From: Candidatus Didemnitutus mandela
GTDB lineage: Bacteria; Verrucomicrobiota; Verrucomicrobiia; Opitutales; Opitutaceae
NCBI GenBank assembly: GCA_002591725.1
Contig: NJAL01000006.1
Location: forward strand, 80,057 to 144,056
Reading direction: 5' to 3'
Length of the DNA: 64,000 bases
The notes beneath the pieces were generated by a model. That model was not told the origin of the DNA. It searched no databases and saw only the letters and a list, made by a program, of their open reading frames with translations. Both the position numbers and the translations under genes were made by a program. Below are positions 48,882 through 53,233 of this stretch, in pieces. Each line of letters opens with the position of its first letter. Position 1 is the stretch's first letter.

Positions 48882-49329
48882 TGGCGGCAATTCCCAGTCG
48901 ATCGACGACGTCCCGTCAGCTCCTTCCACCCCGCTAGCAACCGACAGTTTGCTCACACCCAAAGCAAAAATTTCAAACAATTCCCCCGCAAAAAGGAGAA
49001 GAATCATAGGTATTAATTACTAAATAAACTGCTGCCTCCACCGAGATTTGGTAAACCTCGACTCCAAACTGAGCCGGAAGGTTTAGCGGTTAAACCCCAC
49101 CTTTTCGATGTGATAAAATACCTACTCTGGCTGGGGTCAAACAAAAATAGATTTAGAGGGACGCATTTACGAAAACGCGCAACTAAGCGCACACGTTGAG
49201 TATTGCCTCTCGCTGAGTGAATCGGACCGGAGTTTTCTAGGTGCAGTTCTTTTTACACTTTCCCAAGCTTTGACCGGTAAGGAACCACCCAGCGAAAACC
49301 AAGCCGGTCAGCGATATTATTGTAAAGAT

Positions 49330-50200
49330 CGAATGAACGTCAGTTCTGTCGCAGCATTTTGTGGGGGCTTCCCGTCCCCCGGACGGGGACGGGGAAAGAG
49401 GCGTTTCTCGAACAAATATGCCGCTACGCCAATACACTCCGGAAAGTTGGTTTACCGAGGAAGGAGCCAAGCTCCAAAGCAAAGCGCTTGGAGCGAATGG
49501 GTCTTCGCGGCATTGACAACCTACCGGTTCGTTATGTTTATACAGTCGCAAGGCACACGATCTCACACTGTGAGATGGCATCTACCACTTGCTGGGAAAA
49601 TCGTTTACGGCGCTTTCTCGCGAAGTTACGGGCCGCCCATCAACCGGGACTTGAAATGGTGTTGGAAGTTACAGCCCCATTGGGAGTTAGAATCCCATGA
49701 ATACAATCATGCCTGTTGGTGTCCCCCCCAAATATATAAAGAATGTCCCATCAAAAATGCTCCCCTCTATCGAAAAATGGTATGGGCCTCGAACAGATAA
49801 ATGCCAAACGGGTTCAACAAAACAAAGTATATTACTTTTCAAATACCAAATAGGTTTTTTAAAATCCCGACGACCTTCCGTTTTGGATAGAAGGCTACAA
49901 AAGTCGGCTTCGACTTTTCCAAAGCTCCAAAGTTTTTCGTCCAAGCCCAAGGCCAGCAGACAAGGAATAGGAACCGCGCTACTAATTTCCTGCGACTTGA
50001 GGTTAATCCAACGCACTGAATCACTGAATAGAACCTCCGCAAGGCCCTGCCGTGGAAACGATGCCAGGCGGAAAAATGCGGATCTGTACCGTAAAACTGT
50101 GGATGAAATTTCCCGAGCTGTACCGGAGACCGGTTAAACAAGCGATAGCGAGAAAAACATAACTCGCCGGCTGCTGGATCGTCCCACTGAGCACGGACCA
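49330..50200 (+). pseudogene. HUH rolling-circle replication initiator remnant
   Basis: Across frames: WSEWVFAALT (motif 1), NRLRRFLAKLRAA, RDLKWCWKLQPH (motif 2 region), MLPSIEKWYG, INAKRV..VYYF (motif 3 region), PDDLPFWIEGYKSRLRLFQSSK. Confidence 0.55.
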
Positions 50201-51437
50201 ATAAATCGAAGTAAAGCATGAGCACAGAAAACTCAACAGCGATCGCATCCCCCACAGCACAGCCACAGTTTAACAACGGACTATAATCCCAAGGGCACGG
50301 TCAATCGCCGTATACACTGAAGCAAAAGACAAATAACAAGTAAACCGCCATCAAGGGTTCGAACGGTGAGCAAACCTACACGTTGCAGCATTGCCACGAC
50401 GACAAAGTCATTACACTCCGCAAAAGATCTTCGCAATAGGTAACGTTGCTGGCCACCTATGCGGAAAAAAAAGGGCTGCATCATCATCAAAGGTTTTTTC
50501 TTTTAAAATGGCTTATCCCTGCCCGAGCATTAGCTCTGTAATGCTCAGCAAGTTCGGGCCTGTAAAACGCTGGCACGGACACAAAACATCCTTAGGGTAT
50601 TGCTTCAGCGTCACGGCTCATTTAAGCAATTGGGGAGCGACAGTGCAAACTTAGTTACTAGAATTAATCGTCAAAAAAAATTCAAATTTTTACGCTGGTC
50701 TTTATTTTTCTCGCGGAGGGAAGAAGAAACCGCGAGCCTGGATGCTTACTCTACGCGTTGCGCCCCAATTTCATAGAAGGTTAGCCCACGCAGGGGGAAA
50801 TAGCAAAAAGCATTCGGATATGCCTCAGAAACGTGATTGGGTTAATTTTTCTGGCAGCAATTTAGGGACCGTTTTTTAATTTAGAAACTAGAATTATTTC
50901 CCCCCTTTTTGAACACACCAGCGTATCGGCGTGTGGGGGCCGAGAAGCACTAATCACAATACTAATATTACGAGTACTCCATTTGGACGCTTGGTAGTTA
51001 CAGGTGACATTGCAAGGACTGGGACCGCTCGAGCTATTAAGACCGGAAGTACTGGGAAAGCATCTGCGGTAGACGGCCGGAATGTGCCGCCTCGTTCCCT
51101 TTTCCCCTGTTAATTATCAATATAACTGAATAACTGACTTTCCGTTGTTTTAGCCGCGCCAAACAAAGATATGTATATGTGTTACATTTATCCTTGGACG
51201 CTTTAAATCACTTTAAAATCGCTATTCGAACCGAATTAGCGCGGGTTCAATGTGCGATGTACGCGCTTACTGCTGTGACTGTGGCAGTTCTTTAAGGTGA
51301 TAATCTTGTGTTCGTTTTCTGCCGGAAGCGATATTACTGTCTGCACCTTCTCCAAATTTAGAGCTTAGGAACGCAGGCCAATTTTATTTATGGAACGTCA
51401 ATTTTTGATTCATACCACGATCTTGTAGCAACGAAAA

Positions 51438-51880
51438 TATATTTTATATATACTATATATACTATAATTAATATAAATTTATATTATATTTTATAATAGT
51501 ATTTTAACAATAAAATTTATATTTTTATAAAAATAATTTACTTTGATCTTATTATTAGAAAATTTTAAATCAATCTAATGTCTATTTTAGGAAAGTTATT
51601 TTTATAAAAAATCAGTTTCAAATTATTCATATAAATAGTCTGAAATATTTCAGATATATCTTATGTATAATTCGAAAAGTCTATATATTTATCGAATTCT
51701 TGATAAATATTTTTAACCCTTAAAACCATAACGGTAATTTAATTTATTAAAATACTTAGGCTATTTTTAAGATTTAATTTGGTTGTTTTTTTAATAAAAT
51801 TATGTTAATAATCAACAAAAAATCCTTATAGTATAAATATATTTTAAAAATCGAAAAAAATTTCCGTTAAATAAAGTTAA
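51438..51880. other. Extremely AT-rich tract
   Basis: Roughly 85-90% A+T by eye (line 51481 has 2 G/C in 60 nt) against a background near 50%. Confidence 0.9.
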
Positions 51881-52930
51881 ACGAGACAAAAATTTAGCGA
51901 GGAGAGGAAACCCAAGCTAGTCGCCCTCACACAATATATACCCAAGACCAACATATTGCCGAGAAACGCGTGTACAACATCATCGCCAAAAAATCAGTTG
52001 GAGCAGGAAGGACAAATTGCGCACACCAAAAGCCCGGCAAGACGCAAACGACAGCCTTCGTTGACCGGTACCTTGGTACCGGCTTGTGCCCAGAACCTCA
52101 AAAGGGAAAACTTCGATACAAAACACATCCACAACACACTTGGACGAGTCCAGCGCGTTGTTCAAGACTGTAATTGGCAGCGGCTTCCCCAAGACATTCC
52201 GGCACCAATTTTTTCACTCAATGTAGAGGCAGGATTCCCCGGCTCAGCCAAGACACAGAAAGGGTATTAGGTATTTTTAAGGTTTTTTAAACTGGCTCGT
52301 TCGCGTCAAAGAACTGGAGCCCCGTCCTCTCAAGTGATTCGAGTGGATTGACACATGAGAAAAACAGGTCCGCTCCTATCGGGCCTTCATAAAATAGGGA
52401 ATCCATGCCTTGTTGAGTACAGTTTCTCCGGAACGCCATGTTTGTGTTGCTTACCTTGCGTTCCTCGTTCCTCTACACCAACAAACGCTGCAGAGAAATC
52501 GGTCGCGTGTTAGTCGCTGAAGGTTTGAAACTTGTAGGGAAGAAACTTGGGAGGGCCAGAAATTTGTTTTATATTGAGACAACAAAAGATAGGAGCGCTT
52601 TCGCGTTTCATCCTGATCTGATCCTTTGGCGGCGAATTGTGCATTTTTATTCCGCAGCACGCAGCCCAGCCGACTTAGTATTTTTGAATTTTCCGAGCTA
52701 CGATGTCCCCTTTCAGGGCCATCATAGCTCGCTAGCATCAAACGATGTGGTACTTTCGGCTGTATTGTGCACTTCTACTTTTCCCGTAAGACGCAGCGGC
52801 AAATGACAGGCGCCAGTACCAGGATTTCACATGCAAATCGCAAAAGTCCCCAACTATTCGCGATTCGGCCCTGATCGCGAACGTTTAGACCGAGTTTGCT
52901 GCTGTAGGAGCGAGGAGCGCATGAGGAAAC
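51880..52930 (+). pseudogene. Tyrosine recombinase/phage integrase remnant
   Basis: DQHIAEKRVYNII..EQEGQIA, KHIHNTLGRVQRVVQDCNW, SAKTQKGY, NWLVR, KQVRSYRAF, FLYTNKRCREI (catalytic Arg box), ETTKD, HFYFSRKT (HxxR), DSALIANV*TE (Tyr position mutated to stop). Confidence 0.78.
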
Positions 52931-53158
52931 CGAAGAGCTTTCTTATTTTTTATGTTTTTCTTTTTTGTGTTAGATAAGATAATTAATATACAAAAAACTA
53001 ATACACAAATACATGCAATAAAGTTAAAAACAGATCTTTTCGGACAGTTTCACGAACTCGTCGTAAGTCTGTAAGTTAAATTTGTGAGATCTTGGGGGAA
53101 GATATCACAAAGTTTTTCGAAATCGAAAACCACCTATTCTATTTTAGGTGGGAGGATA

Positions 53159-53233
53159 TGGCTGCCCGGGCTGGGATCGAACCAGCGACCAAGTGATTAA
53201 CAGTCACCTGCTCTGCCGCTGAGCTACCGGGCA
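53159..53233 (-). tRNA. tRNA-Asn (GTT)
   Basis: Cloverleaf: TGCCCGG/CCGGGCA, anticodon loop CTGTTAA, T loop TTCGATC, GCCA end. Confidence 0.98.

What the first reader, a model, noticed from the sequence alone, without database searches (positions are those of the whole stretch)
49122..53233. Fossil ~4-kb integrated element at tRNA-Asn pairing a tyrosine integrase with a rolling-circle Rep
Seen: ctactctggctggggtcaaac (49122-49142) matches the tRNA-Asn 3' portion ctgcccgggctgggatcgaac (53162-53182) at 16/21, in the same orientation, and the match stops at the T loop. A frameshifted integrase points toward the tRNA, and a Rep-like remnant sits at the other end. Established: tRNA 3'-end duplications with a T-loop crossover are attL/attR hallmarks of tyrosine-integrase elements. 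Inference: this is the relic of a small ssDNA-type element (inovirus-like prophage, satellite or integrative rolling-circle plasmid), a class that to my knowledge is poorly described in Verrucomicrobiota. It is invisible in the ORF track.
Basis: partly seen in the sequence, partly recalled or inferred. Interest (0 to 1): 0.8.

Follow-up and report, generated by a model that had tools for sequence, protein, structure and literature searches.

The report
Fossil capsid-less rolling-circle island at tRNA-Asn
This is the decayed remnant of a 4-kb mobile DNA element that sits in a tRNA gene and carries broken copies of a single-strand replication gene pair and an integrase but no detectable virus coat genes; its intact relatives in the same bacterial family likely travel inside the particles of related filamentous phages.

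Summary
The relic is real. Pfam and PHROGs see nothing, but intact elements in relatives align across it: a HUH Rep (43% identity, full length), an OB-fold ssDNA-binding gene, a helix-turn-helix-like fragment and a tyrosine integrase (39%) that runs into tRNA-Asn, all heavily broken. The 16/21 att match alone is weak (8 other such sites in the genome); with its arm-type repeat it is significant (E 5e-5). The Rep and ssb belong to a clade of 4-5-kb elements with no coat or pI genes; the integrase and att arm are closest to an intact 8.1-kb inovirus at tRNA-Asn in the same genus. So the element is a mosaic, most likely capsid-less, not a prophage. Transport by a helper inovirus is inferred, and co-occurrence with helpers was not enriched (3 of 21 vs 25 of 300). 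In 18 of 18 relatives the integrase gene spans the att site, as known for phage Mx8. This scan already described the same family (e1-9870959) and the att-spanning design on other DNA. One kb stays unassigned, including the most AT-rich patch of the genome.

The parts
49115..49145 (+). Decayed attL core, a copy of the tRNA-Asn 3' end (acceptor strand to T loop); left end of the element
   Evidence: 16/21 to 53162-53182; aligns with the G013 attL, E 4.6e-5 genome-wide; intact relatives have 25-50-bp att copies
49166..49195 (+). Arm-type repeat beside attL (likely integrase arm-binding site); also in the frame that would extend the integrase after excision
   Evidence: 25/30 identical to the G013 arm; intact elements L086 and L092 carry the same direct repeat on both sides of the core; binding role is inferred
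49300..50264 (+). Pseudogene of a HUH rolling-circle Rep (PF23343 family in intact relatives)
   Evidence: 142/331 identical to L091 Rep, 9 frameshifts, 6 stops; PF23343 on L086, L091, L092 Reps; start coordinate approximate
49363..49404 (+). Conserved G/C hairpin near the Rep 5' end, candidate replication origin or packaging signal
   Evidence: Motif in 12 of 44 Rep-upstream regions (3 inoviruses, 9 without pI) with paired changes; sole hit in the own genome, E 0.08; function untested
50218..50494 (+). Pseudogene of a small OB-fold ssDNA-binding protein, overlapping the Rep end as in intact relatives
   Evidence: Profile of 40 homologues hits 50218-50460, E 6.9e-7 genome-wide; 45/101 identical to L091; intact homologue model pLDDT 78, best matches RPA/SSB OB folds Z 8.2-8.6
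50680..50840 (+). Fragment of a ~160-aa helical, HTH-like gene family found after ssb in capsid-less relatives
   Evidence: Members ranked 1, 2 and 4 of 2974 ORFs against the middle region; sole own-genome hit of the family profile, E 0.013; score 96 vs shuffle maximum 42
50850..51399 (.). Unassigned middle (possible decayed cargo)
   Evidence: No significant match to pI, coat, pVI, RHH, Xis or other family profiles, nor to Pfam/PHROGs
51400..51895 (.). Sharp-edged patch at 12-19% GC covering the integrase 5' end; origin unexplained
   Evidence: Lowest 400-bp GC window of the assembly, 0.14; next lowest 0.27
51845..53196 (+). Pseudogene of a tyrosine integrase whose frame runs through attR and stops inside the tRNA antisense
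   Evidence: 170/437 identical to the G013 inovirus integrase, 10 frameshifts, 7 stops, one at the position of the catalytic tyrosine (residue role recalled); DNA alignment from 51845; sister to G013 Int at 100/99
53159..53233 (-). Intact tRNA-Asn(GTT); its 3' part is attR
   Evidence: ARAGORN, Rfam RF00005
48332..48923 (-). Host sod pseudogene just outside attL (flank, not part of the element)
   Evidence: Sod_Fe_C E 9.5e-5; 78/202 identical to the G010 Sod, 4 frameshifts, 5 stops

Best explanation
This is the dead remnant of a 4.0-kb element inserted in the 3' end of tRNA-Asn, with broken genes for a rolling-circle Rep, an ssDNA-binding protein and a tyrosine integrase and no detectable coat or export genes, which when alive likely replicated as a single-stranded circle and likely spread inside the particles of related filamentous phages. 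Shown: both att ends, the four gene remnants in the order of intact relatives, and their broken state. Inferred from homology: the integrase excised a circle using the att cores and arm repeats, Rep nicked at or near the conserved hairpin, and the ssb coated the displaced strand. Inferred from relatives: excision would rejoin the integrase gene to a longer C-terminal tail stored beyond attL. Least certain: packaging by a helper inovirus. The element is a mosaic: Rep and ssb from a capsid-less clade, integrase and att arm from the lineage of a tRNA-Asn inovirus in the same genus. It likely died in the same wave of gene decay as the host's sod. This and the first rival share the capsid-less anatomy (about 0.75 together).
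For: The Rep falls in a 14-row clade at SH-aLRT 99 with no pI-bearing member (quick tree); 7 of the 13 other rows hold enough DNA to tell, 6 are cut short. Its best Rep scores are capsid-less L091 486, L092 461 and L086 323, against 127 for the best inovirus Rep. L086 is an intact 3954-bp twin at tRNA-Asn; L091 is about 3.95 kb with Rep-ssb-HTH-like gene in the same order; L092 is 5284 bp. None of 81 matches to the HTH-like family lies within 10 kb of any of 33 pI matches in the same 301 genomes. For a link to inoviruses: shared Rep family and integrase clade, shared hairpin, and a capsid-less Rep sister to two inoviruses of its own genome. Lesion density is alike in Rep (15 per 331 columns), integrase (17 per 437) and sod (9 per 202).
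Against: Helpers are not enriched: 3 of 21 genomes with pI-less Rep elements carry a pI elsewhere, against 25 of 300 overall (binomial p 0.25), and the own genome has no pI match (74.5% complete). The integrase is clearly sister to that of a full inovirus (score 421 vs 226 for the next). About 1 kb is unassigned, and small coat genes would be hard to see at this decay. The hairpin is in only 12 of 44 Rep regions and is absent from L086. The relic is a long branch in both trees, and the Rep tree is the quick version.
Confidence: 0.45

Rival explanations
1. The same capsid-less element, but an integrative rolling-circle plasmid or mobilisable island that does not use inovirus particles: it moves by conjugative helpers, transformation or general transduction, or is mostly inherited vertically.
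For: No enrichment of helper inoviruses (3 of 21 vs 25 of 300). Cargo varies widely: a Dsr1-like SIR2 defence protein, VPDSG-CTERM protein, DUF6941. The HTH-like family also occurs beside other integrases.
Against: Rep, ssb position, integrase clade and hairpin are shared with true inoviruses of the same hosts. No relative was found among 72,556 plasmid records with the L092 Rep.
Confidence: 0.3
2. A complete inovirus prophage like the 8.1-kb G013 element, which lost its 4-5-kb morphogenesis block by deletion during host genome reduction.
For: Integrase and att arm are closest to the G013 inovirus at the same tRNA in the same genus. pI-less elements arise more than once among inovirus Reps. 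The host genome is small and decayed (2.17 Mb; 42% in long stop-free frames, no control genome run).
Against: The relic's Rep is far from the G013 Rep (score 88 vs 486) and sits in a clade with no pI-bearing member. The gene after ssb belongs to a family never seen near pI. No trace of pI, coat or pVI, while Rep, ssb and integrase remain nearly full length.
Confidence: 0.2
3. Two nested or tandem remnants, one giving Rep-ssb and another giving the integrase, joined by deletion at this much-used tRNA site.
For: Rep and integrase have different closest relatives. Tandem elements at tRNA-Asn occur in G035. The AT-rich patch could mark a junction.
Against: The att arm at the Rep end matches the same G013 lineage as the integrase at the far end, and lies about 100 bp from the Rep start, as one element would give. 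Rep and integrase trees disagree across intact elements too.
Confidence: 0.05

Closest known systems
Inoviridae prophages with their own tyrosine integrase (Roux et al. 2019, PMC6813254; passages read)
   Same: HUH Rep followed by an ssb gene, integrase at a tRNA att site; the integrase is sister to that of an intact inovirus in the same genus.
   Different: No pI, which that paper uses as the one universal marker, and no coat, pIII or pVI trace. The word stem 'Verrucomicrobi' does not occur in the paper's main text; its supplements were not read and may list such hosts.
Vibrio cholerae RS1 satellite of CTXphi (one passage in PMC11389934) and TLC (recalled)
   Same: Replication module without morphogenesis genes, related to a filamentous helper.
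   Different: RS1 and TLC integrate at dif through host XerCD (recalled); this family encodes its own integrase and uses tRNA 3' ends. Helper dependence is untested here.
pDolos, rolling-circle plasmid packaged by inovirus Dolos (bioRxiv 10.1101/2023.11.28.569023; abstract and passages)
   Same: Small autonomous rolling-circle replicon with no coat genes; shows that a short signal can suffice for packaging.
   Different: pDolos does not integrate; this element does.
Myxococcus phage Mx8 integrase with attP inside int (passages in PMC4383910, and PMC4701971; primary papers not held)
   Same: The integrase frame crosses the att core, so integration swaps a long tail for a short one.
   Different: Tails here are 38-157 codons, poorly conserved beyond the arm repeat, at six tRNA types; no activity data.

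Membership tests
tRNA-targeted tyrosine-integrase island (Islander definition) | Displaced tRNA 3' fragment in the same orientation | tested here: met
   49115-49145, significant with its arm
tRNA-targeted tyrosine-integrase island (Islander definition) | Tyrosine integrase gene inside the interval | tested here: met
   Pseudogene, 39% to a PF00589 integrase; no direct Pfam hit
Inoviridae prophage | pI / Zot-like morphogenesis ATPase | tested here: not met
   No match in the relic or the own genome; the same profile rings in 25 of 300 relatives
Inoviridae prophage | Major and minor coat genes | tested here: inconclusive
   No signal above shuffles, but short divergent genes could be lost at this decay
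Inoviridae prophage | Rolling-circle Rep and ssDNA-binding gene | tested here: met
Inovirus satellite (RS1 / pDolos type) | Replicon without its own morphogenesis genes | tested here: met
   Met for complete relatives L086, L091, L092; likely for the relic, with 1 kb unassigned
Inovirus satellite (RS1 / pDolos type) | Co-occurrence with a helper inovirus | tested here: inconclusive
   3 of 21 vs 25 of 300, p 0.25; many genomes are incomplete
Inovirus satellite (RS1 / pDolos type) | Packaging into helper particles | not testable with these tools
   Needs culture and virion sequencing
Mx8-type integrase spanning attP | Integrase frame crosses the att core and gains another tail on excision | tested here: met
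   A frame of 400 codons or more enters the tRNA in 23 of 28 loci; tail open 38-157 codons in 18 of 18 two-ended elements; the relic's frame reaches the same stop
Mx8-type integrase spanning attP | The two forms differ in activity | not testable with these tools
   Needs recombination assays

The most novel reading that the evidence does not exclude
Opitutaceae harbour a widespread class of integrase-encoding inovirus satellites: 2-8-kb tRNA islands that swap Rep, ssb and integrase modules with co-resident filamentous phages, share an origin or packaging hairpin with them, carry defence cargo, and switch their integrase between long and short forms through the att site. This relic is a fossil of one that took its integrase from a tRNA-Asn inovirus and so would have competed with its helper for the same site.
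Probability: 0.35. Interest if true: 0.65.

Novelty: new variant of a known kind. Interest (0 to 1): 0.4.

Why it matters
The relic itself is dead and does nothing that could be shown. Its value is as a pointer: intact copies define small capsid-less rolling-circle islands and integrase-bearing inoviruses in about a tenth of sampled Opitutaceae (Rep in 33, pI in 25 of 300 genomes), absent from the phage and plasmid collections searched. If helper packaging holds, they are self-integrating inovirus satellites, missed by pI-based surveys, and a route for defence genes in a phylum with few genetic tools. The relic also shows the lineage carried such an element before its genome decayed.

Tried and rejected
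Pfam on 36 and PHROGs on 18 six-frame read-through pieces: no integrase, Rep or phage hit. PF00589 and PF01446 on the own genome miss the relic. IMG/VR scans: no locus with the G013 integrase or Rep or the ssb alignment, 2 with the Rep alignment. blastn of the relic and tblastn of the L092 Rep against phages, and tblastn against plasmids: no match. RHH repressor, Xis, coat, pVI, pI and other family profiles against the middle: none clearly above shuffles. AT-biased DNA alignment of the AT patch to 12 integrase-upstream regions: none above shuffles. phmmer of one of six read-through frames of the middle against 1.84 billion proteins: one hit, a repetitive spurious ORF, rejected. Promoter and terminator counts equal chance. 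No DnaA-box-like match in 48000-54000 and no skew switch, so oriC was dropped as an explanation of the AT patch (box consensus recalled). Fold search of the HTH-like protein: only weak sigma-4/KorA-type matches, E 0.3 or worse. Codon-position identity did not separate decay from earlier divergence. Sequencing runs: one run holds 0.99 of the sampled words but may be the source sample; no RNA holder listed; no read-level check was completed, so assembly support for the AT patch is open. Literature searches (listings only) showed no paper on such elements in Verrucomicrobiota; the library lacks most subscription journals.

Full report
Observation. tRNA-Asn(GTT) is at 53159-53233, minus strand. 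The 21-mer at 49122 matches 53162-53182 at 16/21 in the same orientation, but 8 other sites of the 2.17-Mb genome do as well, so the match alone proves little. Pfam and PHROGs scans of six-frame read-throughs found no integrase or Rep, only a sod remnant left of the element.

Relatives supplied the key. tRNA-Asn 3' ends are duplicated 7-16 kb away in G013, G035 and G004. The G013 element is an intact 8131-bp inovirus with PF23343 Rep, Zot-family pI and PF00589 integrase. Its integrase hits the window in four frameshifted pieces (E 1.4e-29). Its attL plus arm aligns to 49115-49195 (69% over 81 nt, E 4.6e-5 genome-wide). Intact elements L086 and L092 carry this arm as a direct repeat on both sides of the core. 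The left end is therefore a true, decayed attL, and the element measures about 4.04 kb.

Anatomy. Searches of 300 genomes of the family found the Rep in 33 and the integrase clade in 94. Named records carrying the same elements are Opitutaceae. I fetched 40 of these loci, 24 from public contigs, 13 from metagenomes and 7 more; 10 duplicates were dropped before ranking and tree building. A frameshift-aware aligner gave: Rep 49300-50264, 142/331 identical to L091, 9 frameshifts and 6 stops; ssb 50218-50494, overlapping the Rep end as in intact copies; integrase 51913-53193, 170/437 identical to G013, 10 frameshifts and 7 stops. Shuffled controls peaked near 40 against scores of 300-490. A reversed-sequence control gave no tblastn hit. 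The ssb profile hits the own genome at E 6.9e-7, and an intact homologue folds as an OB domain closest to RPA/SSB (Z 8.2-8.6, near the level common for this search). After ssb lies a fragment of an HTH-like family (50680-50840). A G/C hairpin at 49363-49404 recurs in 12 of 44 Rep-upstream regions, 6 of which seeded the model, with paired changes in the stem.

Two classes of relatives. Full inoviruses of 6.9-10.2 kb carry pI. Capsid-less elements of 2.3-7.7 kb carry Rep, ssb, variable cargo, a small regulator or Xis-like gene and the integrase. The relic's Rep scores 486, 461 and 323 against capsid-less L091, L092 and L086, and at most 127 against an inovirus. It falls in a 14-row clade (SH-aLRT 99, quick tree, long branch) with no pI-bearing member; 7 of the 13 other rows are informative. 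L086 is a 3954-bp twin at tRNA-Asn. None of 81 HTH-like matches lies within 10 kb of 33 pI matches. No pI, coat or pVI signal was found in the middle and no pI in the genome. Against this, the integrase is sister to the G013 inovirus integrase with either of two guide proteins (100/99 and 98). The element is thus a mosaic, and Rep and integrase trees also disagree among intact elements.

Integrase across att. In 23 of 28 loci a frame of 400 codons or more runs into the tRNA. In the 18 elements with both ends (3 secondary or integrase-less att copies left out), the same frame stays open 38-157 codons from the attL core and is the longest of three frames in 18 of 18; other frames reach 38 codons in 6 of 36. 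Loci were picked by similarity to one integrase and are kin, so this is not 18 independent tests. The relic's frame ends at the same stop in the tRNA antisense. The design is known from phage Mx8 (PMC4383910 and PMC4701971, passages), and this scan noted it on at least 11 other genomes.

How it most likely worked. Shown: ends, gene order, broken state. Inferred: the integrase excised a circle, Rep started rolling-circle copying at or near the hairpin, ssb covered the single strand, and the circle re-entered tRNA-Asn. With no coat or export genes it needed a carrier; shared modules and hairpin point to co-resident inoviruses, as for RS1 (PMC11389934, one passage) and pDolos (bioRxiv 2023.11.28.569023, abstract and passages). 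The test I could run did not support this: 3 of 21 genomes with pI-less elements hold a pI elsewhere, against 25 of 300 (p 0.25). Lesion density matches the adjacent sod pseudogene, which suggests loss during host genome reduction.

Flanks and leftovers. sod is 31-71 kb from tRNA-Asn in the 6 relatives where both share a contig; no relative shows ordinary genes homologous to the interval. 50850-51895 is unassigned, and its right half is the most AT-rich stretch of the assembly.

Novelty. Eight literature searches listed no paper on these elements in Verrucomicrobiota, and phage and plasmid collections hold no relative. Roux et al. 2019 supplements were not read and may include Opitutaceae inoviruses. 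An earlier, unreviewed note of this scan (e1-9870959) describes the same family on another genome; I found it after reaching my reading, and it is not independent support. Verdict: real, dead, a new variant of known kinds; interest 0.4.

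Noticed in passing
window 51400-51895: About 500 bp at 12-19% GC with sharp edges, the most AT-rich stretch of the whole 52%-GC assembly (next lowest window 27%). It covers the integrase start; origin unexplained (decayed low-GC cargo is a guess).
   Followed up: partly
L032:10171-18339 (G013): Intact 8.1-kb inovirus at tRNA-Asn: Rep, ssb-like, coat-like, pIII-like, pVI-like, pI, DUF2726, RHH-like gene, integrase. At least 13 such inoviruses were seen in family members, at Gln, Gly, Pro, Val and Asn tRNAs where a tRNA was held. 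Labels other than Rep, pI, DUF2726 and integrase rest on position and size.
   Followed up: partly
L046:5801-7825 (G095): A 2276-bp element at tRNA-Gln whose single 674-aa ORF fuses Rep to integrase; both att ends present.
   Followed up: no
L048:5003-8941 (G173): A capsid-less 7.7-kb element carries a 1312-aa Dsr1-like SIR2 defence gene (PADLOC E 3e-53).
   Followed up: no
L092:10634-12104: Two-gene cargo (311 aa and a 183-aa membrane protein) with no Pfam or PADLOC match in the closest intact relative; a possible unknown defence pair.
   Followed up: partly
L058, L063-L067, L069, L071, L073-L076: A second capsid-less layout, with an Xis-like gene before Rep and a different, oppositely oriented integrase, using the same Rep family.
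   Followed up: no
window 48332-48923 and 53466 onward: The rplY operon lies 3' of tRNA-Asn in some relatives and 5' in others, and genes upstream of sod in G010 map beyond the window's right end, which suggests an inversion ending beside attL.
   Followed up: partly
L016 and L033 (G009): A second copy of the tRNA-Asn anticodon region lies 128 bp 3' of the gene, next to a large resolvase-like ORF: another element type at the same site.
   Followed up: no
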